Below are positions 3,685 to 46,661 of a stretch of 64,000 bases of DNA, in pieces. Positions within the stretch are counted from its first letter, which is position 1; each line of letters begins with the position of its first letter. A program made the position numbers and the translations under genes. Below the pieces are notes generated by a model, which had not been told where the DNA came from, did no database searches, and saw only the letters and a program-made list of their open reading frames with translations. Source of the stretch: a virus; the IMG/VR virus record IMGVR_UViG_3300027816_000081, positions 1 through 64,000 of that record. One strand, 5' to 3'.

Positions 3685-4401
3685 TTACTGGAAGATTTGG
3701 CGATTGTCTTTGCCGTAGATTTTGATGTATTTGCCCGCAAGCATATCGGCCATCGCTTCAATTGGGCTACCAGGATAGCTTGATCCAGGCTTGATCATTC
3801 CTAACTCGCCTTGGCGAACGTGTACGAGTTCATGAAACACAGTGCGTAAGATATCTACGAGATTGCGATTTTTGGCATAGACCCAAACGCTATCTTCACC
3901 CTCAACATGCCGACCGGTATGATGGTTAACTTGGGCCTCTTCGGTATCCATACTCAATTCAATCTTTGGAACCTTATTAAGATGTAATCTTTTGGCAGTC
4001 CAATCAACGAACTTAGCTACCTCTTGTTCAAGGTCCGAATCAACCGAATCAGTTTCATCAAGTTTACCCTTGATCCAACTATCAGGAGTCTTGTGATATT
4101 TCTTTTTGAATAGGTCGTGTAATGCTTTGCCCGTAATCTTATGTTTATGAGCAATCTTTTTCATTAACGTATCAATGGTATTATAGTCATGTTTTGCAAG
4201 TGAGGGCAATCTTTTAGCTAATTCAACTTCGGGCGACTCATTTACGCTTTCACCGCCCCCGCCATCGCCACCGGCGTCACCGCTAGAATCGCCGGTACCA
4301 AAAAAGGCATATCCCGGAAAGAAATAACCACCGTATGCACGGCGAGATTTGGTTTTTCTGCGCTTTTTCTTGCGCTCGGTAATGAATTCGGTGGCTCTCA
4401 T
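3685..4401 (-). CDS. Putative virion-internal protein with C-terminal HExxH zinc metallopeptidase domain
   Basis: Likely start MRATEFITE (ATG 4401, 5 nt after late promoter); LRTVFHELVHVRQ...SPIEAMAD. Confidence 0.7.
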   Translation of the reverse strand: MRATEFITERKKKRRKTKSRRAYGGYFFPGYAFFGTGDSSGDAGGDGGGGESVNESPEVELAKRLPSLAKHDYNTIDTLMKKIAHKHKITGKALHDLFKKKYHKTPDSWIKGKLDETDSVDSDLEQEVAKFVDWTAKRLHLNKVPKIELSMDTEEAQVNHHTGRHVEGEDSVWVYAKNRNLVDILRTVFHELVHVRQGELGMIKPGSSYPGSPIEAMADMLAGKYIKIYGKDNRQIFQ

Positions 4402-4406
4402 ATATG

Positions 4407-4414
4407 TATTTATC
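4407..4414 (-). promoter_or_regulatory. T4-type late promoter (GATAAATA)
   Basis: Motif recurs upstream of many structural/late genes (e.g. near 11096, 19606, 22363, 27794, 34192, 44088, 47807, 48612, 50564, 56132; + strand at 54308, 59373). Confidence 0.7.
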
Positions 4415-10071: not shown

Positions 10072-10086
10072 TTTTCCTGTACACCT

Positions 10087-10767: not shown

Positions 10768-11076
10768 TTAGTAGATACTCTTTGGTGCTCTAGGCTTGTT
10801 ATAGTTCTTGACTGCATCAATGAATGCTTCCTTGCTCTGAACAGCACGGTCTTGCATTTCTTCACGATCCATTGGCTTAAGAGTTTCATAACGATTCAAG
10901 AATGCAATCATAGCATTTACTGGAAGAGCTTCCTTACTACCGTCACGGAAGATGATAGGGCGATTGCCGCCAGTGTCCATGCTCTTGCGAATCTGCATGA
11001 CAATGTTGGGGACCTTGTCGGTATCCGGATCTTCAATGTTGTCAAACGATTCGGTAAGAATTTCATTAATCTTCAT
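10768..11076 (-). CDS. Putative virion-internal protein
   Basis: N-terminus MKINEILTE; late promoter upstream. Confidence 0.55.
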   Translation of the reverse strand: MKINEILTESFDNIEDPDTDKVPNIVMQIRKSMDTGGNRPIIFRDGSKEALPVNAMIAFLNRYETLKPMDREEMQDRAVQSKEAFIDAVKNYNKPRAPKSIY

Positions 11077-11138
11077 AATCTATCACCTCTGTAGTATTTA
11101 TCAGTGAATCACTGTTTTATCATATTGACGGGCCAATG

Positions 11139-13769
11139 TCAACCGTTATATAGCCTTGCTTCTAATTCTCTTGAAGGGTCTATGCGGTGCGCCTGTCTAG
11201 CTCGTTCAATAGCATGTTCTGGACTAGTTGCACGAATGACTACACCCCCGGTGTCGCCTACATCTGTAACTTGATAAAGCTCACCTTCGCCGGGTTGTCC
11301 TGCTGTCAATCCATTATTAGATTGATTTGATCTTCCGCCTACTTCGGTTGCTGTCAAGTCTAGTATTGACCATTCAGGGCGGGCTCTAGTAGCAGCGTGG
11401 TATGCTTCTTCCTGATTAGGGGCTTCAACTCTAATCGTGCCGCCAAATCTGTTGTTGCTAACATAAAATTCTCTTGGAGTTGCAGTCAATTCATTACTGG
11501 AGGATGACTGATTATTTCTGCGCTCTAGTTCACTCTGTTGCGATCTTAGATACATATTGACCACATTAGGATCAGCATCCTGCAATACAACATCTAGACT
11601 GCCAACGGTATCACCCATGCTAGGGTACAATGTCAATGCGATTCTTCCAGCTTCACCCACTGTTCTAGCACTAATGTATTGACTTTCGCCGTTACCTCTT
11701 ACACGATATAAGTTGTATTGCGGTTCTTCTTGAGACTGAGGAGTTGCCGAGAGAACTCTAATCTGATGTTGATATGAGTCCCAACTTGGATTGTTACGCA
11801 ATGCGCGGCTTAATGCAGTTGCGCTATCTCTTGCCGCTAAATCAACTCTTTGATTTAATGTATTGTTAATTACGACGAACTCTGATTCGCCGGGTGCCAT
11901 TCTAAGTGGTTGTTGCGGAGTCTCGCTTGCTAACTTAGCAGTCAATCCTTGCTTTGGCAATCCACTCTCATAACTAAGTGTAATATCAATTGCTTGTAAA
12001 GGTGTTATTGCCATATAGTTACCAACGACATTACCATCCTTGTCAAACACGTTATATTCTTTTTTACCGGTAAATTCAGTTGCGATGATATTTTCAATGT
12101 CATCAGGCTTGAACCAACTCGGCTCTAATTTCATTGCAGCTTCCATTGCCTTATTAGCATCATCAACCTGTTCAGTCTTTTTGAGGAACATTCTGCGATT
12201 GTCGCCGGTTGGATTGTCATATTCAATGATCCAGTCACCGTCTCTTGCATCATAGAATTCAAGTTCAACTACTCCTTCTTTGGATAGTTTCTCTTGTTTT
12301 CTTTGTGATTGTGTAGCCTTAAGCTTGTTCTTCAATTCTTCTCTAGTGATAGTACCTGCTGCATACTGAACGAACACATCTTCCAGTGAACCCTTAGTAG
12401 GAGCAAACATCTTAGTAAGCTTCTTTAAGTATTCCTTACGATACTTGTCAGGATCAACAGCAGCGTCAAGTGCTACTACGCAGCGGTATAATGTATCTTC
12501 AATCTTGTCAAAGTTTTGATCAAGCCAGTCACCACCGGGACCTCTGAACTCAACACGATTATCTTTAGGATTGATACTAGTGAACTTACCTACTCTACCT
12601 GAGTGAATAACTTTACTTGCAATAGTTTCAAGATTATTTTTTAATTTCTTAAATAGTAGTTCTTTGTCTTGTACGCTGGGTGCTTCTTCAATAACATCTA
12701 AAGCACTCTTACAATAACTATTTGCACTGCGGCCAAATCTATCTAGTAGATACTTGTCACCTAACAACAATGTTAGCTTAACGAAGTCTAAATTTTCTTG
12801 ATTAAATCCAGGAACACTGACATTCATGTGAAGACCAGTAGTTCTATTAGTATATGCGCCCTTGTCATCGGCCCACTCTTTAATCTTCTTAACATCTGCT
12901 AACGCTTCATCAATTGGCAATGGGGGACTAATGAACTCAAGTCCAGCATCATCACCTGAACCGCTTAAACTGCTGTCGGGTTCAATCGTATACGCATCAC
13001 TCGTTCTTGGTCCACCGTGATAACCAGTACTGTAGTGAACTTTGCGACCGATTGCATCTGAGAATTCATCTGCTAGATTCTCAAGGTTCATTTCTCCATC
13101 GCCACTTGGATAGGTATAATGTGGCCATGCAACATATTCTCTGACACGATCATTAACATCGGACATATAACGAATGCCGATTTCTCTTAAGAATTCTCTT
13201 TCGTCAAAGTCGCCTTCATCTTGTCTTTCTTCGCGGAAATCATCGTATGCCCTTTGATAACTATCGCTGTCAAATCCTTCTTCCCATTCATCTTCAATGA
13301 ACTGTGCCCAGTCTGATCCGTCAGGGTTTCTATTACCAAATAAATCTTCTTCTTTGTCTACGTGATCGGCAATCGTATCAGGATCTACGTTGTCTTTTAC
13401 CCATTTTGCAAAGTATTCTCTACCGTCATTATTCCACTGCTCATCAATTTGTTCGCTTTGCCACTCATAGAACTTTTCTTTTAGTTCTTCTTCTAAGTCT
13501 CTAATTGTGCTGCGATCATTGTAGTCACCGTCATTAAAGAAGCGAACGATATCATCAATATCGTAGGCTTCTTCATCATAATCCATATCCTCTTCCGGTT
13601 CCATATCGTCATCATCTACAACACCAACGTCAGGAACAAGCATTTCAAATTCAATACCCACTAATGCATCAATGCCACTAGCAAGCTTCTTCAAGTTGCC
13701 TGGGCTCATATTTACTTCAAAAAGCTCTTGCTGAGCTTCTACAATAGGTACGAATTGCTTTGCTCTCAT
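11139..13769 (-). CDS. Putative amidoligase (COOH-NH2 ligase) with acidic insert and C-terminal repeats
   Basis: VGIEFEM, IEPDSSL, GLEFISPPL, TNRTTGLHMNVS, KFTSIN, VEFRGPGG; N-terminus MRAKQFVPIVE. Confidence 0.8.
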   Translation of the reverse strand: MRAKQFVPIVEAQQELFEVNMSPGNLKKLASGIDALVGIEFEMLVPDVGVVDDDDMEPEEDMDYDEEAYDIDDIVRFFNDGDYNDRSTIRDLEEELKEKFYEWQSEQIDEQWNNDGREYFAKWVKDNVDPDTIADHVDKEEDLFGNRNPDGSDWAQFIEDEWEEGFDSDSYQRAYDDFREERQDEGDFDEREFLREIGIRYMSDVNDRVREYVAWPHYTYPSGDGEMNLENLADEFSDAIGRKVHYSTGYHGGPRTSDAYTIEPDSSLSGSGDDAGLEFISPPLPIDEALADVKKIKEWADDKGAYTNRTTGLHMNVSVPGFNQENLDFVKLTLLLGDKYLLDRFGRSANSYCKSALDVIEEAPSVQDKELLFKKLKNNLETIASKVIHSGRVGKFTSINPKDNRVEFRGPGGDWLDQNFDKIEDTLYRCVVALDAAVDPDKYRKEYLKKLTKMFAPTKGSLEDVFVQYAAGTITREELKNKLKATQSQRKQEKLSKEGVVELEFYDARDGDWIIEYDNPTGDNRRMFLKKTEQVDDANKAMEAAMKLEPSWFKPDDIENIIATEFTGKKEYNVFDKDGNVVGNYMAITPLQAIDITLSYESGLPKQGLTAKLASETPQQPLRMAPGESEFVVINNTLNQRVDLAARDSATALSRALRNNPSWDSYQHQIRVLSATPQSQEEPQYNLYRVRGNGESQYISARTVGEAGRIALTLYPSMGDTVGSLDVVLQDADPNVVNMYLRSQQSELERRNNQSSSSNELTATPREFYVSNNRFGGTIRVEAPNQEEAYHAATRARPEWSILDLTATEVGGRSNQSNNGLTAGQPGEGELYQVTDVGDTGGVVIRATSPEHAIERARQAHRIDPSRELEARLYNG

Positions 13770-15193
13770 TTTCTGCCAATCTTCATATATCTTGTGTATT
13801 CAGTTTCTGGATCGTTTAATTTCTTTTCACCAGTATAATATACTTTAGACAAATTAAACAACTCATCAAATTCTGTTAAGCTATCAGTATTTATTGCTAC
13901 GTCAGAAACATTGTTCCTTGCTTGCAATAAACATAGCATATTATCGGGAACCTTAGTTAAAAACACTGGACCTGTTTCGTTGCAGCTAGTGTTAATAACT
14001 ACTCCAGGCTTTTCATAAACTACATCTTCTGCTTTTTGATGAAGTAATACCAACTTGCCTTCGTCATTTAATGTATCTAATAGCTTTTTACTGCGAATTA
14101 ACCATTCTTCATTTGGTTCAACAAGCACAAGCTTGTCAAACTTAACTCCGGCTTGCTGTATGAAGATACCCATATTGCCATACCAGCTACCTAGCACATA
14201 GATAGTGCCAGCGTTCTTGCCTTTAAGACCCTTAGCTAACATATCACATAACCAAGTCTTACTCTCAACTAAGTCTGGAGTAAAGCTGCCCTCAAGTGTA
14301 CTTGGACTTGCTTCTTCAACTTGTTCTTCTTTTAATAAGACTTCTTCAACATCAACGATTTTAGCTTGACTAGGATCAGTAATGACGTAGCTTAGATGAC
14401 CCTTGTCTTCGTATCTATTCTTGTATACGAAACCATCAATGCCTAAATCTCTCAGTTTGTCAAGTAATCGCTTTCTTAATTCTTGAGGATCTTGTTCAGT
14501 AGTAATGAATTCCATTTCTTCTTGACTGATGAGTTTCTTGTCTCTCAACTCAAACGCATAGAGTCTGTCATAGTGTACACCAGGAAAATCTTTGATCGTC
14601 AATGGATTCTTGATATCAATTTGTACTTTATAGATTTTACCGTTCTTGACTTTCTTATAATCCATTCTATCTCGTGCAGCAGTTTCAGAGCCAAAGTGAC
14701 TGAAGGGACGAAACGCCGAGATATCGTCTGTTGTACCGTGATAAGCAACTGTGTTAATTGACTTGTCTTCGGTTAAGTTATCTTCTTCTTTAAAGATAGC
14801 GTAGTAAATCGGATATTCTTCGTCGCCTGCCAATCCCGACTCAATTGGCATTTTACCATCTTCACGATTGATAAAGTCTCTTAGTACTTCATCATAAATG
14901 TCTTCGTACTTTGATAGATACCTAGGATGATCAGCAGGCAAATAACAGCGATCATTTGCATCCTGCTGGCAATAGTCACTGAATCCCTCAAAGTGAACAG
15001 TGTAAGGGCCAAACTTTTCTACACCTACATCATCTGGTCCTAGATTGAATATGAATTCTTCAATCTGAGTGATATAATCTTTACCATCTGAATGCTTAAT
15101 ATTTTCAACCACAACAACTTCTTCCTGTAGCTCAGGCTCTTGTTCTAATAGTTGTAGTGATTTGATTAACATCTGCATTTCATCCGGGGACAT
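13766..15193 (-). CDS. Multidomain protein: ADP-ribosyltransferase-like domain plus SAM-dependent methyltransferase-like domain
   Basis: AYHGT..SHFGS..KIYKVQIDIKNPL..GIDGFVY..YVITDPSQ (ART-like, ~14340-14770); IYVLGSWYG, LVLVE, VINTSCNE (MTase-like). Confidence 0.65.
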   Translation of the reverse strand: MSPDEMQMLIKSLQLLEQEPELQEEVVVVENIKHSDGKDYITQIEEFIFNLGPDDVGVEKFGPYTVHFEGFSDYCQQDANDRCYLPADHPRYLSKYEDIYDEVLRDFINREDGKMPIESGLAGDEEYPIYYAIFKEEDNLTEDKSINTVAYHGTTDDISAFRPFSHFGSETAARDRMDYKKVKNGKIYKVQIDIKNPLTIKDFPGVHYDRLYAFELRDKKLISQEEMEFITTEQDPQELRKRLLDKLRDLGIDGFVYKNRYEDKGHLSYVITDPSQAKIVDVEEVLLKEEQVEEASPSTLEGSFTPDLVESKTWLCDMLAKGLKGKNAGTIYVLGSWYGNMGIFIQQAGVKFDKLVLVEPNEEWLIRSKKLLDTLNDEGKLVLLHQKAEDVVYEKPGVVINTSCNETGPVFLTKVPDNMLCLLQARNNVSDVAINTDSLTEFDELFNLSKVYYTGEKKLNDPETEYTRYMKIGRK

Positions 15194-15642
15194 TACGCCC
15201 TCGCGGTTTTGAGAATACTTCTTAGCATCCAGGCGTGCTTAGCATGTGCATCAATGCGTTCTGCAATAAAGTTTGCAATACCCTGCTCATCGCTGTCATT
15301 CGCTACATGGAAGGCTTGCTTATACATATCAAGAATGATAGCGTTGTCCTGATGTAGTTCTTGCATCATCAACTCAGCACGAGGGATTTTTACTTGATCT
15401 GCGATCTGACTTAATTCAGCATAGCGAAGGATACTACCGGGAGTATAGCTATCAAGTTGACGAATGATTTCTGCCAACTTGTCAATAGTGTTGCCGTATA
15501 CTTCTTCGTAATAATTACCAAAGAATTCGTGATACTGGGGGAAATTAGGTCCTTCCACATTCCAGTGGAAGTTTTGTGCCTTGATTGACAAAGCATATGC
15601 AGTGGCTAAAAGGGTTTTAAGTGTATCAGTGAGCATGTTCAT
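15193..15642 (-). CDS. dps: Dps/ferritin-like protein
   Basis: FHWNVEGPNFPQYHEFF..YEE....DKLAE, HAWML. Confidence 0.93.
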   Translation of the reverse strand: MNMLTDTLKTLLATAYALSIKAQNFHWNVEGPNFPQYHEFFGNYYEEVYGNTIDKLAEIIRQLDSYTPGSILRYAELSQIADQVKIPRAELMMQELHQDNAIILDMYKQAFHVANDSDEQGIANFIAERIDAHAKHAWMLRSILKTARA

Positions 15643-15657
15643 AGTCCTATAGACTAT

Positions 15658-15873
15658 TTATTGTTTTGATTCAAGAACTGCAACTCTTTTGTCAATGTCA
15701 TGAATATCGTCTTCAATATCATCCTTGAGTTGGTCTCTTGCAATTTGAGCATTGTCTTGCATAATTTGTACTTGCTCTTGTAGATTTATAACTGCCATTA
15801 CTAAATATCCTACACCAGTCAATAGTATAGGGAATAGTGCCATCAATATATCTTTAATCCAACTATCTTTCAT
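15658..15873 (-). CDS. Small membrane protein with coiled coil
   Basis: One N-terminal TM, C-terminal DKRVAVLE. Confidence 0.55.
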   Translation of the reverse strand: MKDSWIKDILMALFPILLTGVGYLVMAVINLQEQVQIMQDNAQIARDQLKDDIEDDIHDIDKRVAVLESKQ

Positions 15874-16003
15874 TTAAAATGTCACTCGCTTTCGTCTTCC
15901 AAATATTTGGAAATAATCCATGCACCATTAATATAAATGCAACTTTGTACGCCCTAAACAGGTGTTGAAAGTATGTCATCCTAACATCTCTGAGATGGCT
16001 CAT
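15863..16003 (-). CDS. 46-aa hypothetical protein (DUF6356-like)
   Basis: Below ORF-track cutoff; MSHLRDVRMTYFQHLFRAYKVAFILMVHGLFPNIWKTKASDILNER, overlapping both neighbours. Confidence 0.55.
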   Translation of the reverse strand: MSHLRDVRMTYFQHLFRAYKVAFILMVHGLFPNIWKTKASDILNER

Positions 16004-16533
16004 ATTTCTTCCTCACTAACATCTATGTAGTTAATTGGTTTGTTTGATAATACTGCTGCTACCGCTCTGTGATTCCCGTCAACAATTCTATCTTGATTTA
16101 GTATAATTACTTGTTGTGACAGATTAGGATCATTTTTGTAGTGATCAATAACTTCTATTTGTTCTGGCTGCATCATGTCATATAAGTCTTCAATATGTTC
16201 TACGCCATATTGATTGATTAATATGTTGTCAAGAATCATAGGTTGTATAGTTTGCACTTCAAAAGGAACATCAAAGTCACTATCGCCTACATAATTCCAA
16301 ATAAGCTCATCGTCATCTGGATATTCACCATCATAGATATCAGCAAGCGTTATAGTATTTGTTTTATTTTCATTAGTCATCGCGGTGATACGACGAGGTC
16401 CTTTACGTTTGAACATATTATATTCTTGTTCGTAGGTAGTAGGACCGCCTACCATTGAGCCGCCATTGTTGCCGGCACAACCTCCACCTAAGCCCGTGCT
16501 TACTGATTCAGGTAGAAACTCACTTGCTCTCAC
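16000..16533 (-). CDS. Putative internal protein with ParB/Srx-like domain
   Basis: N-terminus MRASEFLPE; IILNQDRIVDGNHRAVAA. Confidence 0.65.
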   Translation of the reverse strand: MRASEFLPESVSTGLGGGCAGNNGGSMVGGPTTYEQEYNMFKRKGPRRITAMTNENKTNTITLADIYDGEYPDDDELIWNYVGDSDFDVPFEVQTIQPMILDNILINQYGVEHIEDLYDMMQPEQIEVIDHYKNDPNLSQQVIILNQDRIVDGNHRAVAAVLSNKPINYIDVSEEEI

Positions 16534-18298
16534 GCTTAAGGCCTCTCATGATGGCTGATTCCTTCGGTACGCAGTTAGGCACCATCTTGTCGCCCTTCTT
16601 TTTCATACCAACTTGCTTGTGTGTATCCCAGCACTTTTCGTCAAGCTGTTCTTCATTAACATCAGCCTTCAGTCCGTGCTTTACAAAATAGTTAATGAAA
16701 TCCTGTCGCACCTTTTCCCACTCAGAGTAGGGCATCTTGTGTAAAACATGTCCTGCAACATGATCCATTGCGTCATATGCATATTCAAAGTGACGGACTG
16801 CATTACGCATTGCATCACGTGCCTCTGGATATTGGGCTAAAAATGCTTCTAGCTCATCACTACCTTCCTTTATTGTTCCGGCACTCTTTGGCTTGTACTT
16901 TCTCCAGCCACCTTCACCACTAGCACCAGTAGGATTATCAGTTGGAGTTTCGCTGATAGCACCTCTGTGTTTACGATCTTTTAGACCACCATATGGATTG
17001 ATTGCAGGAGTTACTTCTGCTGCGAACTCACCGGTGTAGTCTTCATTGAATTCATTTTCTTCATTATTCATAAGGCTATTTGCTGAATCCATCATAGTGA
17101 ACATGTTTTTTCCCATGTAACTATGATCTTCACTGACTGCCATTACAATATGAGGGTACCAATATGATTTTGCTCTACCTTCTTCTTCTGTGCCGCGCAC
17201 TAAGCGCATAGCAGTATCAGCAAGTTCCTTAATTTCATAAGCCAAATCTTCAAGCTGAGAACCAATTTCACGGGTATCTTCACCGGCAGCTTCACCGAAG
17301 TAAAGCTTTGACATTTCTTCTTCAGCAGCTACGATTGTGTTTAGTGTGTTGGCAAGTTGCTTAACATTATATGCTGAGTTTTTAAACTTACCTTCACTAA
17401 CATCTTTTGCTAATTCATTAGCTTCCATCTGTGCTTTCTTTTTGAGATTGCTAAGGCTGTATGAACCGGCGCCGCCAAGAACTGCAACTTGAGGATCGTC
17501 TTTGTCATGACCGATGATCACACCTTCACGCATTTCTCTCTTAAGCTCAAACTTTTTGTTAGGGAACTTAGCTTGTAGTCTTTCTAAGTCACCTTTTGCT
17601 TCATGGTCTTTTGCGTATTTGGTAGAGGGCTTGCCATCAATGTAGAGTACTAATACATTTTCAGATTCATCAACAATACCCTTCATGATATTGCTCTCAT
17701 TCTTCTTGCCACCGGTGCCCCAATTTTTAGCACCCTTCTTACGGCATTGAACTAATGCACCCGACGCATAAGCAGAAGGCCAAACTTTATAACGGCTTCT
17801 AACTTTATGATAGCAAGCATCCTTCTTTTCATTCATCATTGATTCATGATACATTGGACCACCGCATTCTGGGCATTTTTCTCTGTTCATATCTTCGTTC
17901 TTTCTTTTACCTGCGCAATGTGCTTTTTGGCTAAAGCCTTTTGGATTAGAGCAATTAATACTGTCTTTGTATTTTTGACTCCACTTTTCATTTACCTGAA
18001 TATCTTCGTTTGACTTCTTTTTAGTAGCTACGTTCTTAGCCTTTCCTCTGCGCTCTGGGTTTGGATCTTCTCTGCGCTTTTTACTAGCAGCATATTTGCG
18101 GCCTTTCTTACCTAATGCATGTGCTTTCTTTTGGGGGAGACATTTGGGCTTACCTTCACTGTCATCACCTCTTGCACAAGCGCCACGAATCTTGCCGTCG
18201 GGACCAAAACGAACCCACTTCTCTTTGAACCACTTGCGTAGATTTTCATCTAATTGTTCTACGCCTTCGTCGCCAATGCCATCAAATATAGAACTCAT
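16520..18298 (-). CDS. Modular putative internal polyprotein of short Cys/Lys-rich modules
   Basis: Modules LRKWFKEKWV..KPKCLP, KWSQKYKDSINCSNPKGFSQKAHC, KKDACYHKV..WPSAYASGALVQCRK, CWDTHKQVGMKKKGDKMVPNCVP, each after a hydrophobic-x-E site. Confidence 0.6.
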   Translation of the reverse strand: MSSIFDGIGDEGVEQLDENLRKWFKEKWVRFGPDGKIRGACARGDDSEGKPKCLPQKKAHALGKKGRKYAASKKRREDPNPERRGKAKNVATKKKSNEDIQVNEKWSQKYKDSINCSNPKGFSQKAHCAGKRKNEDMNREKCPECGGPMYHESMMNEKKDACYHKVRSRYKVWPSAYASGALVQCRKKGAKNWGTGGKKNESNIMKGIVDESENVLVLYIDGKPSTKYAKDHEAKGDLERLQAKFPNKKFELKREMREGVIIGHDKDDPQVAVLGGAGSYSLSNLKKKAQMEANELAKDVSEGKFKNSAYNVKQLANTLNTIVAAEEEMSKLYFGEAAGEDTREIGSQLEDLAYEIKELADTAMRLVRGTEEEGRAKSYWYPHIVMAVSEDHSYMGKNMFTMMDSANSLMNNEENEFNEDYTGEFAAEVTPAINPYGGLKDRKHRGAISETPTDNPTGASGEGGWRKYKPKSAGTIKEGSDELEAFLAQYPEARDAMRNAVRHFEYAYDAMDHVAGHVLHKMPYSEWEKVRQDFINYFVKHGLKADVNEEQLDEKCWDTHKQVGMKKKGDKMVPNCVPKESAIMRGLKRESK

Positions 18299-18727
18299 TT
18301 AGTCAGCCTTCTTATTCTTATCTTTTTCAGTGATTGGTCCGCCCGTTACCCAAGCTTTGCAACTACGACCGCCTGCACATTTGAAGTGTAAGAAGTTGCA
18401 ATAACCCAAATCACTTAAGTTAATAGTAGCATTAGGATCAATATTATCTTCATCGCCCCTGATACCACTTGCAATGCAATCACGCATACTATCGCTTACA
18501 TCAAATGCAGCACAGTTTCCGCACATCATTGACTTAGCCGTAGCTTCATCAACTTTAAATACTTTGCTCAAATCTTTCCAATATGAACCGGGCTTATTTG
18601 GATTGGCTGGGCCATACATGTATTCGTCAATTGCAGTTTGACGATTCTTAAGATTCAAGTCAATGTCGTGGGTAGCACGGGGGCAACCCTTCTCAACAGC
18701 TTCTAGCAAGTTGATGATATCACGCAT
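18299..18727 (-). CDS. Cys-rich putative metal/Fe-S protein
   Basis: N-terminus MRDIINLLE; CGNCAAF...GYCNFLHFKC..RSCKAW. Confidence 0.55.
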   Translation of the reverse strand: MRDIINLLEAVEKGCPRATHDIDLNLKNRQTAIDEYMYGPANPNKPGSYWKDLSKVFKVDEATAKSMMCGNCAAFDVSDSMRDCIASGIRGDEDNIDPNATINLSDLGYCNFLHFKCAGGRSCKAWVTGGPITEKDKNKKAD

Positions 18728-18728
18728 C

Positions 18729-19580
18729 TTAGCCTACGCCACCATCAACAAATTTCCACCCAGTGCGGCCTTCCTCATATTTCTTCATTGTTGCTAATGC
18801 TTTATTGTACACTTCCTTAGCAACAGGTGTTCTTCTATTTTGCTTTATGATTTCTACTGCTTTACTATAGTCATCAATTTCATGTTCTTGGCCAGTCGGA
18901 ACAACATATCGGTCTCCGCTAAAAGTGCGGATGGTTTTTGCAGAATCCATACTTTCACCGACCCCACCAGCAGCAATAACACCGCCGGTCATTTCATGTT
19001 GTTGTAGTTGCTTACCTTCTAGATATTCACGAATAGTGTTTAGATAGTCATTTGCTTTGATGATCTTTTCTTGTACCCAGCCTTCAAGACCTTCTTCTTC
19101 GGTTAAATCAGCAATCAACTCATATACTTGCTTTGCGTTCTTAGCAGCACTGAATAGGTCGCTACGAGCCATTTCAACTTCGTGATCAATGCGACTTTGA
19201 CCATGTGGAATGAAACCACTCTTTAACTTGTGTCCTTGACCCGGAACAAGAATCAAATCATCTTCTTGTAAGTCAGCTTCGTGAACTGTCTTCTTGGCAT
19301 CAGGATCGCCTAATAAGAACTTAATTTGTTCTTTATCTTTACCATACTTCTTTTTGAAGTTGCCGTTATCCATGTTTCTGATATCCATAGCAAGTTCTTT
19401 CATCTTGCCCTCATTCATTGAGTTGGCATACTTCTTATTAGTCTTTTTACCAGTCAATAGATTTCCTACCTTTTTGCCACCATAAATGCTAGCGTTTCTA
19501 GATTGTGTGGACATTGGTGCTGACACGGTAGCAATAGAACCTGCTGTAGTGCTTTCGTTGACGATATCTGTAATTTTCAT
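18729..19580 (-). CDS. Modular putative internal protein
   Basis: N-terminus MKITDIVNE; DHEVEMARSDL..LEGWVQEKIIKANDYL module; late promoter upstream. Confidence 0.55.
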   Translation of the reverse strand: MKITDIVNESTTAGSIATVSAPMSTQSRNASIYGGKKVGNLLTGKKTNKKYANSMNEGKMKELAMDIRNMDNGNFKKKYGKDKEQIKFLLGDPDAKKTVHEADLQEDDLILVPGQGHKLKSGFIPHGQSRIDHEVEMARSDLFSAAKNAKQVYELIADLTEEEGLEGWVQEKIIKANDYLNTIREYLEGKQLQQHEMTGGVIAAGGVGESMDSAKTIRTFSGDRYVVPTGQEHEIDDYSKAVEIIKQNRRTPVAKEVYNKALATMKKYEEGRTGWKFVDGGVG

Positions 19581-19620
19581 GGGTAATCCTATATAGTAAT
19601 ATAGTATTTATCACATAAAC

Positions 19621-19650
19621 AAAAAGGGGGCCCCATTCTGAGGCCCCTAG
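19621..19650 (-). terminator. Rho-independent terminator
   Basis: GGGGCC..GGCCCC stem followed by T-run on minus strand. Confidence 0.7.
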
Positions 19651-19670
19651 TTAACGCTACTAATCAGATA

Positions 19671-20582
19671 TTACTGATTAGGCGGGGAAGATTCTTGTGC
19701 TGCGGCTTCGGCTGCTGCCTTTGCTGCCTGCTCCTGAACATACATTGGACCAATGTTATCCATCAAGTACTGCTGATTTTCTTGACAGAACACATATGAT
19801 CCTGAGTGACGGAGAAGAACTCGCTTGTCAACCCAAATACGACCACCGAGGTCTCTCCAGTTTTCACAGAAGGTCCAGTCTTCACTGTAGTAACGATTCT
19901 GACGAACTGCGGTGTCAAAGTAAGTCTTCAAGTGCTGATCGTATCTTGGATCAAGACCAATGTCGTTCTTGTACTGCTTAACCGCGGGGTGACTATTCAT
20001 CTTCTCAAATACATGCTTCTTCATAAGAAGGAATCCGGTGCCTGCCTTTGAAACTTCTTGAAGTCCATCGGGGCCTTCTTCTGCACCCTCAAACCCGTTA
20101 ACGACCCACTTGATGGGCATAGTCTTCATTGGGTACAAACCACCGATAACGTCTACGTCCCTATTCAAGAGGACTAGCAAATGCCAGGGTTCCCAACCGA
20201 TATCAGCATCAACGAAGAATAAGTGCGTTGCGTCGGGCATGTCAAGAAACTTAGCAGTGAGTGTGTTTCTTGCGCGGCTAATCAATGATTCATTAACCAT
20301 TGTTTCTAGTGTCCAGTCAATACCAAGCTGACGGGCAGTGTTAGCCCACTTGATAAATGACATGAAAGTTGATTCTGTCAACATACCACCGTAGCAAGGC
20401 ATCGCAATGTGAACCTTAGTTGTACGGAGGAAGTCAACGTTAACCTGTACCTGTCCAGCCTGGGGAGCCTGCTCCTGTGCAGCCTGTTCAGCGATTTCTT
20501 GCACCTTCTCTACGGGAACTGTGCGTTCCTCGCCGTTTGGTGCAACATTCTCAGTATTAGTAGTTTTTGGTTTACGTGCCAT
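19671..20582 (-). CDS. Glycosyltransferase (GT-A fold)
   Basis: IAMPCYGG, ESLISRARN, THLFFVDADI (DxD), GTGFLL, SEDWTFC. Confidence 0.8.
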   Translation of the reverse strand: MARKPKTTNTENVAPNGEERTVPVEKVQEIAEQAAQEQAPQAGQVQVNVDFLRTTKVHIAMPCYGGMLTESTFMSFIKWANTARQLGIDWTLETMVNESLISRARNTLTAKFLDMPDATHLFFVDADIGWEPWHLLVLLNRDVDVIGGLYPMKTMPIKWVVNGFEGAEEGPDGLQEVSKAGTGFLLMKKHVFEKMNSHPAVKQYKNDIGLDPRYDQHLKTYFDTAVRQNRYYSEDWTFCENWRDLGGRIWVDKRVLLRHSGSYVFCQENQQYLMDNIGPMYVQEQAAKAAAEAAAQESSPPNQ

Positions 20583-20639
20583 GTAGTCCTCTTTCTTGTA
20601 AACTTGTATAGATATTTACAAGAGGAACTAGTAGTGAAA

Positions 20640-21821
20640 TTATTTTTCTTCTAAATAATCCTGATTTTCGGACACATTTTGGTCATTTGCAATAATCTTT
20701 TTGATTTCGTTTTCAACATGCCCTGGAGGATTACGATATGGACTCATGTCTACAGCGGCAACCATTCTATATGAATCATCACCTACTTGATAGTAAACAG
20801 TAAATCCTTCTTTATAGAAGCCTTCATCATCTTGGTAAGTATCATCACCTAAGAAATATCCATTTCCTAAGTCTTCAATGATTTCAGCTTGTCTAGCAGT
20901 ATAAACATCACCGGCTTTTTCATTCAACTCTTTGAATGTCTTACGATACACGTTTGGTTCCATGCTATAACGACTTCCTATTACTTTGTTGCCTTCACCA
21001 CTCAATAGCATATCATACAATAGTTTAATGACTGATTGCTTGTCTCTGAGTTGTTCAAGTCTTTGCTTTAACCATGCAACTTTATTTGGCTTCATAGGGC
21101 GACTTGAATTGGGATTAGTGATTAATCTAAATGCCTGCAATTTAATTTGATTCAAGTCTTTCAAACGCATTAAGTTATTGATATCGTCTGCGTTAAAGTT
21201 TTCTGGTGGTAAGTTTTCTCTACCTTCTGATACATCCTCAGTTCCCATTCCTAAATCAAGCATCTTGACAATATTCTTAGCAAGTCTTTCGTTCTCTCGT
21301 GCTTTAGGATACAAGCTCATTACCATAGCAAGCTTGCGACGATCATTTAACTGAGGCCAAATGTTGCGAATCTCAGTTGCAGATTTGATACCAGGACCAA
21401 ACTCTACTGTAGGTAGATATGCGATATAGCCATGCTTACCAAATGGTTCTAAGTTCTTGCCTGTATAAGGCTGAAAGTATGCAGGGCTACCATCTTTCTT
21501 TGTGCCACCTGGTTTAGGTTGTTCATCACGGTCCTTTTCACTGCGTACAAATACTAGTACGTCTTGCTCAGGATCATAGTTCTGAGTGATTTCTTTAGCT
21601 TGGAACGGACTCTTTACTTGAACAAAACGCCCATCCTGAACGCCAGCAACTTTAGCTAATTTCTCTTTAATCTCAAAGGGAAAAGGACGAGATTTGGTGT
21701 CATTAGTTGCAGCGACATATACATCTGCATTAGGAAATGCTTTCAAGGCACTTTGATATAGTGCAGCATGTCCTGCGTGAAATGGGTGAAAGCCGCCGGG
21801 CATAATGACAATCATACTCAT
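20640..21821 (-). CDS. Cytidyltransferase-like (HIGH) nucleotidyltransferase with C-terminal modules
   Basis: PGGFHPFHAGH, PFPFEIK, KSATEIR. Confidence 0.75.
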   Translation of the reverse strand: MSMIVIMPGGFHPFHAGHAALYQSALKAFPNADVYVAATNDTKSRPFPFEIKEKLAKVAGVQDGRFVQVKSPFQAKEITQNYDPEQDVLVFVRSEKDRDEQPKPGGTKKDGSPAYFQPYTGKNLEPFGKHGYIAYLPTVEFGPGIKSATEIRNIWPQLNDRRKLAMVMSLYPKARENERLAKNIVKMLDLGMGTEDVSEGRENLPPENFNADDINNLMRLKDLNQIKLQAFRLITNPNSSRPMKPNKVAWLKQRLEQLRDKQSVIKLLYDMLLSGEGNKVIGSRYSMEPNVYRKTFKELNEKAGDVYTARQAEIIEDLGNGYFLGDDTYQDDEGFYKEGFTVYYQVGDDSYRMVAAVDMSPYRNPPGHVENEIKKIIANDQNVSENQDYLEEK

Positions 21822-25279: not shown

Positions 25280-25293
25280 TTTTTTGTTTCCTT

Positions 25294-26094: not shown

Positions 26095-26126
26095 TATATA
26101 GCACTCTGGGCGTTAAAAGTCAAGTA

Positions 26127-26648: not shown

Positions 26649-26650
26649 AC

Positions 26651-27181: not shown

Positions 27182-27182
27182 A

Positions 27183-44168: not shown

Positions 44169-46661
44169 TTACTTGACTCCGGCAAGCTTTACCCAGTCAT
44201 CAACTGAGTCGCTTACTGAACCCTGATGGTCATGCATTCTTTCAGTCTGACCAGCAATAACAGGAACAGTCGTCTGACCAGTTGACTTAGGCTTGTTGAG
44301 TCCACCTGCAATAACCTTGGTCATGAATTCAATGTCTGCTTCAAATGATGCATCAGTACCCTTCTTACCTGCATTGTTAGCCCACTCAGTAAGTTCTTCT
44401 TCTTTCAACTCGTCAGAAGTATCGTACCATGCTTTACCATAATCCGGGCCATCTTCTTCGTCGTCAAAATCCTTGTCATCTTTCTTGTCATGTTCAGGAT
44501 GCTTTGGCTTATCGCCTGAACCTTCTGACAATTGATCAAGACGATCTAACAAATCAAAGAACGATTCGTTTACGCTCTTAAGAGCAAGAGCCTTATCTTC
44601 TTCAGCTTCAGCTTCTTCGTCGGCAGTAGTTTCTGCTGCACCTGAATCGGGTGCGTTATCTTCTGCAACTTTGAATTCCATTTGATCTTCTGATTCTACT
44701 TCATCGACCATTTCTTTTGAACCGCAACTGTGTCCAGCTTCCATCATTCCGCCGCATTCCATGCAAGCTCCTTCGTTAGCTTCTTCTTTGTCACAATCAC
44801 AATTGCCTTCTTCGCAGTCGCAACCACCTTCTTCATCAGCGTAGTCTTCTGCACCCGATGCTTCAACACCGCTTAATTTCTTCATTAGACCAAGCATATC
44901 ATCTGAGCCATCAACTACATCAATATCTACGCCGCCTGCGCCAACTTCATCCGGAGCTCCATGTGCTGGCTGAATTGACATTGCACTTGATGGTTCATGT
45001 GCAGCTTCATCGCCGAACAAACCAAGACCAGCGTGCTTTACAAGTTGTAGTAGTTGGTCTGCTTCTGCATCTTGTGCAGTGATAGTTACTGAGTCAGGAG
45101 CATTCTGCTGACCCTTAGAAACTGATACTGAAAGACCTTCTGACAAATCTTCGCTTTCGTTAAGAAGTGCATTAAGCTGCTTGTCAAGTGATTCAAATGC
45201 ATACTCGTCAATCTTTGCATCATGTGATGTACGATCAGTGTATGTCTTACCACCTACGGTGAACTTGCCTCCCTTTGGAGTCTTTGCAAGTGCTGCGGTG
45301 AAAGCGTTGCCTTCATCCATTTCGTCTTCTTTATAGAAGCCGCCACCGCGTTGAAGATCCATATCTGAATGTGACATTGCAGTAGCCGGGTCTTTCTTAT
45401 GATAGTCATAAGCACCCTTTGCCATAGCGCCCGCGCCGGCAAGAGCGGCAGCGCCGCCAAGCGCAAGAGCAGCCTTACCCAGTCTGCCTTCTTCCATTTC
45501 ATCTTCCATTGCAGGCATTGCAGGCATTGCAGCACTTGCCATTCCAGGAACAGTTGCTGGCATAGCAGTTTCATAAACGCCCTGACCATAGCATTCGTCA
45601 AGACCTTCTTTGTAGCCCTCGTGATATGCCTTCATTTCTTCTAGGTCTTCGTATCTCTTGCCAGAGTGTGCATGACCTCTTAGACCGTGTGATTTGCCCT
45701 CTAAGCGGGCTGCACTAATTCTGTGATTCATAGATTCATCTACCTTTTTCTTTTTCTTGTCGGCTGCCGCCTTCTTCATTGATTCTTTCTTGTTGCCATC
45801 TTTGTCAAGGTCTAAGAAGTCTGGCTTCTTACCTTCTAAAGTTGTTTGACTACGACCAGCACCTAGATTGGCACCTTGGGTATCAATGCCGTTAGTAGGA
45901 GCTATATCGCCTTCTTTTACTTTCTTGGGAAGCTTGCTTACCTTTTGTCCGTGACTTTTCTTGATAAACTCTTTTGCAACCTTCTGACTTACACCAGTCT
46001 TCTTAGCAACATCTTTGTCATCAGCAGCAGCATACATTAATTTTGCTTGTTGCTGACTTGCAAACTTTTCGTCAAGCTGTTCTTCTTGAACCTTACCCCA
46101 ATCACTCTTAGCACGAATAGCAAACGCAAGTTCTCTCATCTTACCGAACTCTGGCGAACCCTTCTTGTGTGGGCCACTTGCCTTTAGTTTGTTATAAGCT
46201 TTAGTAAGTTCTGCCTTGTCTTTTCCAGCATACTTACCCTTCTCACTTGGAGCTACTTTAGTTTCAGCATCCCACTTTTCTTTCATTTGCATTTGACCAG
46301 CTGGTTGCTGACCAGTTGCACCTGCAGGTGCCGGCTGACCTGTTTGACCAGCAGTTGGAACAACGATTTGCAATTTCTTCTGCTGAGCAAGATCACCTAC
46401 TGCTTTGCTTAAAGCTTGTGCAGCAGGACTTGTATCGGTTACATTGATAAATCCTGCGCCAGTTTGTTGGGTGCCGCCTTCTTTTCCTACTACAGGAACA
46501 GGCTGTTTTGTTGCCATTGTCTCAAAAATGTCTTTAAGACGAGTTGGCTTAGTTTCAGCGTTTATGGGTGGCTTAGTTGAATCTTCACTCAACATTTTTT
46601 TCTTAGTAACCTTAGGAGCAGTAGCTTCTAATTCAGTTAATTTACCTAGAATGTCTTTCAT
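44169..46661 (-). CDS. Large modular prohead core/internal protein
   Basis: Low-complexity; many L/M/V-x-E junctions; modules KPDFLDLDKDGNKKESMKKA, EGNAFTAAL; ends WVKLAGVK. Confidence 0.55.
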   Translation of the reverse strand: MKDILGKLTELEATAPKVTKKKMLSEDSTKPPINAETKPTRLKDIFETMATKQPVPVVGKEGGTQQTGAGFINVTDTSPAAQALSKAVGDLAQQKKLQIVVPTAGQTGQPAPAGATGQQPAGQMQMKEKWDAETKVAPSEKGKYAGKDKAELTKAYNKLKASGPHKKGSPEFGKMRELAFAIRAKSDWGKVQEEQLDEKFASQQQAKLMYAAADDKDVAKKTGVSQKVAKEFIKKSHGQKVSKLPKKVKEGDIAPTNGIDTQGANLGAGRSQTTLEGKKPDFLDLDKDGNKKESMKKAAADKKKKKVDESMNHRISAARLEGKSHGLRGHAHSGKRYEDLEEMKAYHEGYKEGLDECYGQGVYETAMPATVPGMASAAMPAMPAMEDEMEEGRLGKAALALGGAAALAGAGAMAKGAYDYHKKDPATAMSHSDMDLQRGGGFYKEDEMDEGNAFTAALAKTPKGGKFTVGGKTYTDRTSHDAKIDEYAFESLDKQLNALLNESEDLSEGLSVSVSKGQQNAPDSVTITAQDAEADQLLQLVKHAGLGLFGDEAAHEPSSAMSIQPAHGAPDEVGAGGVDIDVVDGSDDMLGLMKKLSGVEASGAEDYADEEGGCDCEEGNCDCDKEEANEGACMECGGMMEAGHSCGSKEMVDEVESEDQMEFKVAEDNAPDSGAAETTADEEAEAEEDKALALKSVNESFFDLLDRLDQLSEGSGDKPKHPEHDKKDDKDFDDEEDGPDYGKAWYDTSDELKEEELTEWANNAGKKGTDASFEADIEFMTKVIAGGLNKPKSTGQTTVPVIAGQTERMHDHQGSVSDSVDDWVKLAGVK

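What the first reader, a model, noticed from the sequence alone, without database searches (positions are those of the whole stretch)
10768..21821. Capsid-cargo island: shared T4-like capsid-targeting N-termini and protease-cleavable polyproteins carrying enzymes
Seen: unrelated late proteins share short N-termini ending hydrophobic-x-E: MRATEFITE (4401), MKINEILTE, MRAKQFVPIVE, MRASEFLPE, MRDIINLLE, MKITDIVNE, MKDILGKLTE (46661), MRSLKQYIME (47290). Their domains begin just after internal LTE/LDE/VNE/VEE/VSE sites. Known: T4 internal proteins use the targeting sequence MKTYQEFIAE, the gp21 head protease cleaves after (I/L)-x-E, and the ADP-ribosyltransferase Alt is packaged this way. Inference: this phage packs a modular toolkit (amidoligase, ART, methyltransferase, ParB-like, Zn-peptidase, nucleotidyltransferase, small peptides). 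The toolkit would be cut into separate effectors in the head and injected with the DNA, acting before transcription in host takeover or anti-defence.
Basis: partly seen in the sequence, partly recalled or inferred. Interest (0 to 1): 0.85.

Follow-up and report, generated by a model that had tools for sequence, protein, structure and literature searches.

The report
Head-protease-jointed phage capsid cargo island
An uncultured marine giant phage related to T4 tags at least eight unrelated late proteins with a T4-style "load me into the head" peptide and strings enzymes into chains joined at the cutting motif of the T4-type head protease, so these are probably packed into the capsid and cut apart, though no cut or packaging has been measured.

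Summary
The window is the first 64 kb of a 99.9-kb fragment (about 29% complete) of a marine T4-superfamily jumbo phage. Eight unrelated proteins in late operons start with a 9-11-residue leader, M-K/R-x(5-7)-hydrophobic-x-Glu. It conserves the same positions as the T4 capsid targeting sequence.

The decisive evidence is comparative:
- Close relatives gain, lose and swap modules in the island's multi-domain proteins at hydrophobic-x-Glu joints (8 of 13 within one residue, 0.9 expected).
- The methyltransferase-fold module fused behind the ADP-ribosyltransferase occurs in hundreds of environmental phage proteins as a stand-alone protein. Its short leader ends in Glu exactly where the fused module begins.
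- Other modules behave the same way.
- A T4-type S77 head protease is present in the closest large relative and in cultured relatives. It is absent from this fragment.
- In phage PA5oct, 4 of 6 leader-like proteins are mass-spectrometry virion proteins.

Not shown: cleavage, packaging, injection, any host-takeover role.

Weak points:
- The Zn-peptidase is only an HExxH motif, and ParB-like is a lead.
- Four island genes (glycosyltransferase-like, Dps, two small membrane ORFs) show no leader or joints. The nucleotidyltransferase lacks a leader but has variable C-terminal modules.
- The 830-aa protein fails the joint test.

The scan has noted the same theme in many other genomes. New variant of a known kind.

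The parts
3685..4401 (-). 238-aa protein. It has a 9-residue leader (codons 4375-4401), a very basic stretch and a Gly-rich linker. An HExxH motif sits at residue 190 (3820-3834).
   Evidence: The C-terminal part recurs inside 1638/1653-aa chains of relatives. No Pfam, NCBIfam or PDB support for a peptidase.
4407..4414 (-). Late-promoter-like box GATAAATA, 5 nt upstream of the start at 4401.
   Evidence: 12 boxes in the window against 3.8 expected. All lie just upstream of same-strand starts, including those of the tail tube and fibre genes.
10768..11076 (-). 102-aa protein with a 9-residue leader and its own late-promoter box at 11095-11102. Function unknown.
   Evidence: In relatives the leader varies but keeps hydrophobic-x-Glu.
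11139..13769 (-). 876-aa protein. It has an 11-residue leader (13737-13769) and an amidoligase module up to a Val-Val-Glu joint at residue 502. After that come about six short repeats of a small domain.
   Evidence: Pfam Amidoligase_2, 2.5e-7. In relative L071 the same module lies inside a 1638-aa chain, and the leader aligns with an internal joint there. Repeats were seen by eye only.
13766..15193 (-). 475-aa three-module protein:
- an N-terminal helix ending Leu-Leu-Glu at residue 17 and a variable N-terminal part;
- an ART-PolyVal module starting after Leu-Thr-Glu at residue 142;
- a class I methyltransferase-fold module starting after Val-Glu-Glu at residue 294 (13769-14311).
   Evidence: Pfam PF18760, 4.4e-8. 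Module swaps in relatives. Stand-alone homologues with a leader. AF2 pLDDT 91 and Foldseek hits to SAM methyltransferases. The joint at residues 286-296 is disordered.
15193..15642 (-). Dps/ferritin-like protein in the same late operon. It has no leader and no joint evidence.
   Evidence: Pfam Ferritin, 2e-21. N-termini in relatives also lack a leader.
16000..16533 (-). 177-aa protein with a 9-residue leader (16507-16533), a Gly-rich linker and a C-terminal ParB/Srx-like module (Asp-Gly-Asn-His-Arg motif).
   Evidence: A relative carries an extra 155-aa module inserted after Thr-Asn-Glu at residue 55. In L075 the module sits at the end of a 651-aa chain.
16520..18298 (-). 592-aa chain of small, basic, Cys-containing modules and helical modules. 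Joints lie at residues 18, 140, 211, 258, 336, 419 and 554. There is no canonical 9-11-residue leader; the first joint comes after 18 residues.
   Evidence: phrog_727 and homologues in T4-like cyanophages. Indels in relative L004 fall at Val-Asp-Glu, Met-Arg-Glu, Phe-Gly-Glu and Phe-Asn-Glu. Its modules are stand-alone with leaders in L071/L073.
18299..18727 (-). 142-aa protein: a 9-residue leader followed by a HiPIP-annotated Cys-rich domain.
   Evidence: tblastn of residues 15-135 hits phage proteins annotated as 'high potential iron-sulfur protein'. At least 1200 protein clusters share this family, and all those read have a leader ending hydrophobic-x-Glu.
18729..19580 (-). 283-aa protein with a 9-residue leader. 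It is the first gene of the late operon (box at 19605-19612, preceded by a terminator-like hairpin). A 75-residue C-terminal module is added after Val-Gly-Glu at residue 209.
19671..20582 (-). 303-aa protein (phrog_1574) with no leader. It is not shown to belong to the cargo set.
20640..21821 (-). 393-aa protein. An adenylyl/cytidylyltransferase domain starts at residue 1, with no leader. Variable C-terminal modules are bounded by Val-Ser-Glu (residue 199) and Leu-Asn-Glu (residue 301).
   Evidence: Pfam PF01467 and TIGR00125. Indel in L004.
46661..47290 (-). 209-aa conserved protein with a 10-residue leader very close to the T4 CTS. Late box at 47317-47324. It lies next to the head-closure and tail-tube genes.
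   Evidence: The leader is conserved in Vibrio phage 2.275.O, Atu_ph07 and six IMG/VR relatives.
44169..46661 (-). 830-aa acidic protein with a 10-residue leader. Its size varies from 663 to 953 aa in relatives. Polyprotein status is not established.
   Evidence: The joint test is negative (3 of 22 against 2.0 expected).

Best explanation
The island is a set of late-expressed proteins addressed to the prohead core of a T4-superfamily jumbo phage.

Proposed mechanism:
1. A 9-11-residue N-terminal leader (Met, Lys/Arg, a hydrophobic or aromatic residue at P4, hydrophobic at P3, Glu at P1) acts like the T4 capsid targeting sequence.
2. The T4-type S77 head protease removes it by cutting after the Glu.
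3. Several genes encode chains of unrelated modules: amidoligase plus small repeats; ADP-ribosyltransferase plus methyltransferase; small basic Cys modules; a ParB-like module.
4. The linkers in these chains carry the same hydrophobic-x-Glu motif, so one chain is cut into separate mature proteins inside the head.
5. Because every module carries its own cut site at its N-terminal edge, modules can move between stand-alone, leader-tagged genes and fusions without losing processing.

Shown here:
- the leaders;
- the late-promoter context;
- the position of the joints;
- the equivalence of leader ends and internal joints;
- the folds of three enzymes;
- the protease in the lineage.

Inferred: targeting, cleavage, retention in the virion, ejection, and any role in the next host.
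For: 1. Leaders: 9 of 121 ORFs here against 22 of 1476 in four comparison phages. All eight genuine ones lie in operons headed by a GATAAATA box that is shared with the tail tube and fibre genes.
2. The conserved positions P1 Glu, P3 Leu/Ile/Val and P4 Phe/Ile are those that mutagenesis of the T4 CTS found to matter, residues 7, 8 and 10 (PMC9026906). T4 IPII/IPIII, gp24 and gp22 N-termini read from the T4 genome look alike.
3. Module indels between 84-90%-identical relatives fall at hydrophobic-x-Glu:
   - 8 of 13 within one residue (0.88 expected, p = 4e-7);
   - unfiltered, 8 of 20 (1.33 expected, p = 2e-5);
   - controls with Asp, Lys, Gln or Ser/Thr at P1, or a non-hydrophobic P3, are flat.
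4. 381 stand-alone homologues of the methyltransferase module were found. In all 109 that carry the module's N-terminal motif (of the 120 listed and read), a short leader ends in Glu exactly at the residue where the fused module starts here.
5. The same holds for the small Cys modules, the amidoligase and the ParB-like module in L071, L073 and L075.
6. AF2 puts the joints in disordered linkers next to a confidently folded domain.
7. The S77 protease PF03420 is found in the closest large relative G007 (5e-29) within a T4-like head module. It is also found in Atu_ph07, PA5oct and Vibrio 2.275.O.
8. In PA5oct, 4 of 6 leader-pattern proteins carry the record's ESI-MS/MS virion note, against 93 of 461 overall (PMC7318152).
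Against: - No protease, portal or capsid gene lies on this 29%-complete fragment.
- There are no proteomic data for this phage or any close relative. The methyltransferase module has no homologue in any cultured phage.
- Hydrophobic-x-Glu is not over-represented overall, so most such triplets inside domains are surely not cut.
- The joint test fails for the 830-aa family.
- Some joints have Thr rather than a hydrophobic residue at P3, which goes beyond the published T4 rule.
- Several island proteins lack a canonical leader: the 475-aa, 592-aa, 393-aa and 303-aa proteins and the Dps.
- The junction sample is small, and its relatives are not independent of each other.
Confidence: 0.7

Rival explanations
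1. The proteins are targeted to the prohead and cut as proposed, but they are not injected effectors. They would serve inside the producing cell or the head: as core or scaffold filler, as DNA-condensing basic peptides, or as enzymes acting on the packaged DNA. Much of the material would be expelled or stay behind, as happens with fragments of T4 gp22, gp67 and gp68.
For: - The 592-aa chain is basic (pI 8.8) and made of small Lys/Arg-rich modules, like the basic T4 internal proteins.
- The 209-aa and 830-aa pair is conserved in position next to the head-closure gene, as a core component would be.
- The T4 review states that most core fragments leave the head.
Against: - ART-PolyVal, amidoligase, methyltransferase and ParB-like modules are enzyme types described in injected polyvalent proteins (PMC5512222).
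- Module content turns over quickly between 85-90%-identical relatives. This fits a conflict role better than a structural one.
Confidence: 0.15
2. The chains are classical polyvalent proteins that are processed, if at all, by an embedded zincin-type metallopeptidase or by autoproteolysis rather than by the head protease. On this reading the Glu-ending joints are just acidic flexible linkers.
For: - The ART-PolyVal domain is a hallmark of polyvalent proteins, whose processing was proposed to depend on zincin-like peptidases.
- An HExxH motif exists at residue 190 of the 238-aa protein, and that module recurs in the 1638-aa chain of a relative.
Against: - No peptidase family or fold could be assigned to that module.
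- Enrichment at joints is specific for Glu at P1 and a hydrophobic residue at P3. Asp, Lys and Gln controls are flat.
- The internal joints are positionally identical to the ends of N-terminal leaders of stand-alone proteins. Plain linkers do not explain this.
Confidence: 0.05
3. There is no processing at all. The shared N-termini would reflect translation-start or composition bias, or recombination at conserved gene starts. The joints would be recombination hot spots between cassettes.
For: - A loose leader pattern matches 2-6% of ORFs in any of the phages tested.
- Hydrophobic-x-Glu is at composition expectation overall.
- Cassette exchange at short conserved sequences is known in T4-like phages (own knowledge).
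Against: - P1 Glu is invariant in 40 of 40 distinct leaders of one family and in all leaders of a second family read from at least 120 clusters, while the other leader positions drift.
- The motif sits at internal joints far from any start codon.
- Leader-like proteins of PA5oct are enriched among virion proteins.
- The pattern matches the experimentally defined T4 CTS position by position.
Confidence: 0.07

Closest known systems
Phage T4 internal proteins IPI, IPII, IPIII and Alt: capsid targeting sequence plus gp21 (S77) processing
   Same: - A roughly 10-residue N-terminal leader with a hydrophobic or aromatic residue at P4, hydrophobic at P3 and Glu at P1.
- Unrelated, fast-changing cargo behind a conserved leader.
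- Late expression with head genes.
- An ADP-ribosyltransferase among the cargo.
- An S77 protease in the lineage.
   Different: - The host phage is a distant marine jumbo relative, in the Atu_ph07 / PA5oct / RaK2-like group.
- Much of the cargo is enzymatic and arranged as multi-module chains with internal cut sites, so the head protease would act as a polyprotein-processing enzyme.
- P3 is sometimes Thr.
- A second, longer leader type (15-17 residues) seems to exist.
- Nothing has been measured.
Polyvalent proteins of phages and conjugative elements (Iyer, Burroughs, Anand, de Souza, Aravind 2017, PMC5512222)
   Same: - Disparate enzymatic domains in one polypeptide.
- The ART-PolyVal domain itself and ParB-like modules.
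- Extreme domain shuffling.
- Predicted delivery with the DNA.
   Different: - That paper proposes processing by embedded zincin-like peptidases. Term searches of its text found no 'gp21' and 'prohead' only in the reference list, so it appears not to link polyvalent proteins to the T4 targeting sequence or the S77 protease.
- Here the joints carry the head-protease motif, and the modules also exist as small leader-tagged genes.
Proteolytically matured ejection proteins of phiKZ-like giant phages (phiKZ gp175, SPN3US gp245; cleavage after Ser/Ala/Gly-x-Glu)
   Same: Many head-internal proteins are cut after Glu by a T4-related prohead protease. Propeptides carry redundant sites (PMC9026906).
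   Different: The phage lineage and the P3 preference differ. No common short N-terminal address peptide and no cassette-like enzyme chains have been described there.

Membership tests
T4-type CTS cargo (internal-protein system) | N-terminal propeptide of about 10 residues, with targeting residues (T4 positions 4 and 7) and processing residues (position 8 hydrophobic, position 10 Glu) | tested here: met
   Eight leaders have P1 Glu (8 of 8), P3 Leu/Ile/Val (8 of 8) and a mostly Phe/Ile/Tyr P4. The positions match the T4 mutagenesis summary and the T4 N-termini read from its genome.
T4-type CTS cargo (internal-protein system) | The phage encodes a gp21-type S77 prohead protease | tested here: inconclusive
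   Not on this 29%-complete contig. Present in the closest large relative G007 (5e-29), in a complete 518-kb relative, and in Atu_ph07, PA5oct and Vibrio 2.275.O.
T4-type CTS cargo (internal-protein system) | Late expression together with the morphogenesis genes | tested here: met
   The GATAAATA box occurs 12 times against 3.8 expected. It always lies just upstream of same-strand starts, heading the leader operons and the tail tube and fibre genes. This is sequence evidence only; there is no transcript data.
T4-type CTS cargo (internal-protein system) | The protein is physically present in virions and is cut after the leader Glu | not testable with these tools
   Indirect only: 4 of 6 leader-pattern proteins of PA5oct carry the ESI-MS/MS virion note.
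T4-type CTS cargo (internal-protein system) | Ejection into the host with the DNA | not testable with these tools
   No data.
Polyvalent proteins (Iyer et al. 2017) | Two or more domains of disparate biochemical activity in one polypeptide, including hallmark domains such as ART-PolyVal | tested here: met
   PF18760 ART-PolyVal scores above its curated cut-off and is fused to a class I methyltransferase fold. The amidoligase chain also qualifies.
Polyvalent proteins (Iyer et al. 2017) | Embedded zincin-like metallopeptidase (MPTase) as the processing domain | tested here: inconclusive
   Only an HExxH motif at residue 190 of the 238-aa protein. No hit in Pfam, NCBIfam or PDB sequences.
Class I SAM-dependent methyltransferases | Rossmann-like seven-strand methyltransferase fold with a Gly-rich motif I after strand 1 | tested here: met
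   AF2 pLDDT 91.3. Foldseek against PDB: NodS, BioC, NTM1 and NNMT at E about 1e-7 and TM 0.6-0.73. An invariant Gly-x-Trp-x-Gly-Asn follows strand 1. Substrate unknown, activity untested.
ParB/Srx-like nuclease/NTPase domains | ParB N-terminal-like fold with the Asp-Gly-x-His-Arg catalytic loop | tested here: inconclusive
   The motif is present in the sequence. The language-model neighbour cluster has PF02195 in 44% of members, score 0.93. Pfam and PDB sequence searches found nothing.

The most novel reading that the evidence does not exclude
Across marine and freshwater T4-superfamily phages, the head protease doubles as a polyprotein-processing enzyme for a plug-in cargo system. Any module that carries a hydrophobic-x-Glu edge can be moved between a small leader-tagged gene and a long chain. 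This would give these phages a large, rapidly exchangeable set of pre-made enzymes delivered with the DNA before any phage gene is expressed: ADP-ribosyltransferase, methyltransferase, amidoligase, ParB-like, Fe-S protein.
Probability: 0.45. Interest if true: 0.8.

Novelty: new variant of a known kind. Interest (0 to 1): 0.62.

Why it matters
If the chains are packed and cut as the sequences suggest, the T4 capsid-targeting principle extends well beyond T-even coliphages. It would apply to abundant uncultured ocean phages and to whole enzyme chains.

This would matter in three ways:
- It links two separately described ideas, the T4 internal proteins and Aravind's polyvalent proteins, through one concrete and testable mechanism.
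- It gives a simple sequence rule for predicting the injected proteome of uncultured T4-like phages.
- It points to natural leader and joint sequences that could be used to load foreign proteins into phage heads.

The families involved are very common in metagenomes, with hundreds to more than a thousand protein clusters for single modules.

Tried and rejected
- **Loose leader pattern.** It matches 2-6% of ORFs in T4, PA5oct, Vibrio 2.275.O and S-RIM2, so it was replaced by a stricter pattern.
- **Overall count of hydrophobic-x-Glu.** Not enriched in the island proteins, so it was dropped as evidence.
- **Joint test on the 830-aa family against L087/L088.** Negative: 3 of 22 against 2.0 expected.
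- **Pfam on excised modules.** Run at E up to 1 on the N-part of the 475-aa protein, the methyltransferase part, the ParB-like part, the 283-aa, 592-aa and 876-aa parts and the C-part of the 393-aa protein. Nothing significant.
- **Searches for the unassigned modules.** PDB sequence searches for the methyltransferase-like, ParB-like and HExxH modules found nothing useful. NCBIfam gave only the nucleotidyltransferase.
- **tblastn of the methyltransferase module against cultured phages.** No match.
- **Self-BLAST for repeats in the C-part of the 876-aa protein.** Nothing significant; the repeats are seen by eye only.
- **Whole-protein AF2 of the 475-aa protein.** The N-terminal 170 residues are poorly modelled with the shallow alignment.
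- **PF03420 and PF07230 on the own contig.** Absent, but the contig is a fragment.
- **Export through the neighbouring curli-like genes.** Considered and rejected: the leaders are short and charged, not secretion signals.

Full report
**What the window is**

The window is the first 64 kb of a 99,864-bp IMG/VR viral contig that CheckV rates 29% complete. The tail sheath (50609-54178) is most similar to those of Atu_ph07, PA5oct, Salicola SCTP-2, Vibrio phage 2.275.O and RaK2/121Q-like coliphages. These are jumbo myoviruses of the wider T4 superfamily.

All genes between 10768 and 21821 lie on the minus strand and mostly abut or overlap.

**The observation**

The eight quoted N-termini exist at the stated starts. 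The start at 4401 is the second Met of a longer ORF. A GATAAATA box at 4407-4414 lies inside that longer ORF and supports the shorter start.

A loose regular expression is not convincing, because it also matches 2-6% of ORFs in T4, PA5oct, Vibrio 2.275.O and S-RIM2. A stricter pattern requires Met, Lys/Arg, then hydrophobic-x-Glu with the Glu at residue 9-11.
- It matches 9 of 121 ORFs here.
- It matches 22 of 1476 in those four genomes, which themselves contain genuine targeting sequences (Fisher p = 3e-4).
- One of the nine (58860-59297) sits behind an early-type promoter and is probably a chance match.

The box GATAAATA occurs 12 times in the window against 3.8 expected. It always lies a few to about 40 nt upstream of a same-strand start. 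It heads the tail tube gene, the 2172-aa fibre-like gene and four leader genes. The run 19580 to 11139 reads as one late operon, and 11076, 4401 and 47290 have boxes of their own.

**Comparison with T4**

Read from the T4 genome itself, IPII and IPIII begin with the published targeting sequence. The same string is printed in 10.1101/2021.01.19.427310. The vertex protein gp24 and the scaffold gp22 begin with very similar propeptides.

A review of T4 head assembly (PMC9026906) reports three relevant points:
- Targeting depends mainly on residues 4 and 7 of the ten-residue sequence.
- Processing depends on residues 8 and 10.
- Asp at residue 10 blocks cutting.

Counted back from the cut, these are P7, P4, P3 and P1. 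In the leaders of this window, P1 is Glu in 8 of 8, P3 is Leu/Ile/Val in 8 of 8, and P4 is mostly Phe/Ile/Tyr.

**Module exchange in close relatives**

Three IMG/VR contigs encode the island at 84-90% protein identity. Against that background the multi-domain proteins differ by whole modules:

| Protein in the window | In relatives |
|---|---|
| 177 aa | 332 aa |
| 475 aa | 629 or 633 aa, with two different inserts |
| 592 aa | 424 aa |
| 283 aa | 208 aa |
| 393 aa | 297 aa |

MAFFT-defined indel edges coincide with hydrophobic-x-Glu:
- After setting aside three messy edges: 8 of 13 within one residue (0.88 expected, p = 4e-7) and 11 of 13 within three residues.
- With all 20 edges unfiltered: 8 of 20 within one residue (1.33 expected, p = 2e-5).
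- Controls with Asp, Lys, Gln or Ser/Thr at P1, or a non-hydrophobic P3, show no enrichment.

The total number of such triplets in the proteins is at composition expectation. Position, not count, carries the signal.

**Stand-alone forms**

This is the strongest result. The C-terminal module of the 475-aa protein (residues 295-475) has 381 homologues among short proteins, mostly 189-193 aa.
- Of the 120 listed and read, all 109 that carry the module's N-terminal motif have a short leader ending in Glu directly in front of the conserved first residues of the module.
- In the window's protein, those residues follow Val-Glu-Glu at residue 294.
- Among 40 distinct leaders, P1 is Glu in 40, P3 is Thr/Leu/Phe/Val/Ile, and residue 2 is mostly Arg.

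More distant IMG/VR relatives (L071, L073, L075) encode several modules as separate leader-tagged genes: the methyltransferase-like module, the HiPIP-like protein, and the two kinds of small Cys module from the 592-aa chain. They place the amidoligase inside a 1638-aa chain and three ParB-like modules in a 651-aa chain. In each case the leader of the free form aligns with the internal joint of the fused form.

The 142-aa HiPIP-like protein belongs to a family of at least 1200 protein clusters. The leaders read in it always end hydrophobic-x-Glu.

The 209-aa protein keeps a near-T4 leader in Vibrio 2.275.O, in six IMG/VR relatives and in Atu_ph07, where the deposited start is too short.

**Structure and domain calls**

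With a 45-sequence alignment the methyltransferase-like module folds at pLDDT 91.3. Only the six joint residues are disordered. Foldseek matches class I SAM methyltransferases (NodS, BioC, NTM1, NNMT) at E about 1e-7 and TM 0.6-0.73.

In the whole 475-aa model, residues 286-296 form a disordered linker. The N-terminal 170 residues are poorly modelled.

|---|---|
| Amidoligase | Confirmed by family models |
| ART-PolyVal | Confirmed by family models |
| Adenylyl/cytidylyltransferase | Confirmed by family models |
| Methyltransferase | Confirmed at fold level |
| ParB-like | A sequence motif and a language-model lead only |
| Zn-peptidase | One HExxH motif only |

**The protease**

PF03420 is absent from this fragment. 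It is present in:
- the closest large relative G007 (244 kb; 61% identity on the 830-aa protein, same gene order), where it sits in a T4-like portal / core / protease / scaffold / capsid module whose proteins start with Leu-Leu-Glu-type sites;
- a complete 518-kb relative;
- Atu_ph07, PA5oct and Vibrio 2.275.O.

**Indirect virion evidence**

The PA5oct record marks proteins found by ESI-MS/MS. Of its six proteins that match the strict leader pattern, four carry that mark. One of these lies between the portal and protease genes. The base rate is 93 of 461 (PMC7318152), which gives a binomial p of about 0.02 by my calculation.

In an unrelated phage, DSL-LC01, the HiPIP-like domain is encoded directly upstream of the capsid maturation protease.

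**Limits**

- Nothing here measures cleavage, packaging or ejection.
- The 303-aa protein, the Dps and two small membrane ORFs have no leader and no joints. The 393-aa nucleotidyltransferase has no leader, although its variable C-terminal modules are bounded by such joints.
- The 475-aa and 592-aa proteins lack the 9-11-residue leader. They begin with longer stretches ending hydrophobic-x-Glu (residues 17 and 18). These resemble the 15-residue starts of the 830-aa family in relatives. That is my inference.
- The 830-aa family fails the joint test.
- Some joints have Thr at P3, outside the published T4 rule.

**What is known**

The targeting sequence and the variable internal proteins of T-even phages are textbook (PMC3012670, PMC9026906). 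Polyvalent proteins are described (PMC5512222), with zincin peptidases proposed for processing. Term searches of that paper found no 'gp21' and 'prohead' only in the reference list.

The PA5oct paper does not discuss processing. My literature searches found no description of leader-tagged, head-protease-jointed enzyme chains in this phage group.

Earlier notes of this scan report the same theme in many other genomes, so it is recurrent in the scan's own data.

**Verdict**

It is best classed as a new variant of a known kind.

Noticed in passing
window 4401-4414 and 27788-27801: The late-type box GATAAATA is followed by the start codon after only 5 nt, with no room for a Shine-Dalgarno sequence. 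These may be leaderless late mRNAs. An earlier first-reader note makes the same point.
   Followed up: partly
window 5077-10676: Phage-borne curli-like secretion genes (CsgG-like lipoprotein 8807-9634, CsgF-like 9628-10071), two paired small membrane proteins (10087-10676) and larger exported proteins lie directly downstream of the island. Close relatives keep the same order.
   Followed up: no
window 18299-18727: The leader-tagged 142-aa Cys-rich protein is annotated elsewhere as a high potential iron-sulfur protein. Its family is extremely abundant and conserved: at least 1200 clusters, and the best 120 are 72-93% identical. What an Fe-S protein would do as capsid cargo is unexplained.
   Followed up: partly
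window 11142-12263: The C-terminal 370 residues of the 876-aa amidoligase protein look like about six repeats of a 40-50-residue strand-strand-helix unit. Five of the six begin right after a Glu, but without a hydrophobic P3. BLAST self-comparison did not confirm the repeats.
   Followed up: partly
window 15193-15642: A Dps/ferritin-like gene sits in the middle of the late cargo operon without a leader. It is conserved at that place in relatives.
   Followed up: no
window 23012-31029: A chaperone set lies next to the island: a ClpA/ClpB-like AAA+ protein (755 aa), a DnaJ-like protein (266 aa) and a GroES-like co-chaperonin (30661-31029). Iyer et al. 2021 suggested that such ClpA homologues might help load proteins into heads.
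   Followed up: no
L070 5001-5756 (Atu_ph07, AUZ94910.1): The deposited start of this Atu_ph07 gene is 29 codons too short. The longer ORF begins with a leader almost identical to the T4 targeting sequence and aligns with the window's 209-aa protein from residue 1.
   Followed up: yes
T4 genome NC_000866, 18966-19130 (minus strand): A 54-codon ORF of T4 starts with a sequence that differs from the IPII/IPIII targeting sequence at only a few positions. I did not identify which annotated gene it is.
   Followed up: no
L087-L094 and window 15143-15193: A second, longer leader type of 15-17 residues has a heptad-like Leu pattern and ends Leu/Ile-x-Glu. It heads the 830-aa family in relatives and resembles the start of the 475-aa ART protein.
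   Followed up: partly
L075 14829-16019: A relative encodes a leader-tagged 396-aa protein that carries a chitinase/lysozyme-like motif. This suggests that a cell-wall-degrading module is also part of the exchangeable set.
   Followed up: no
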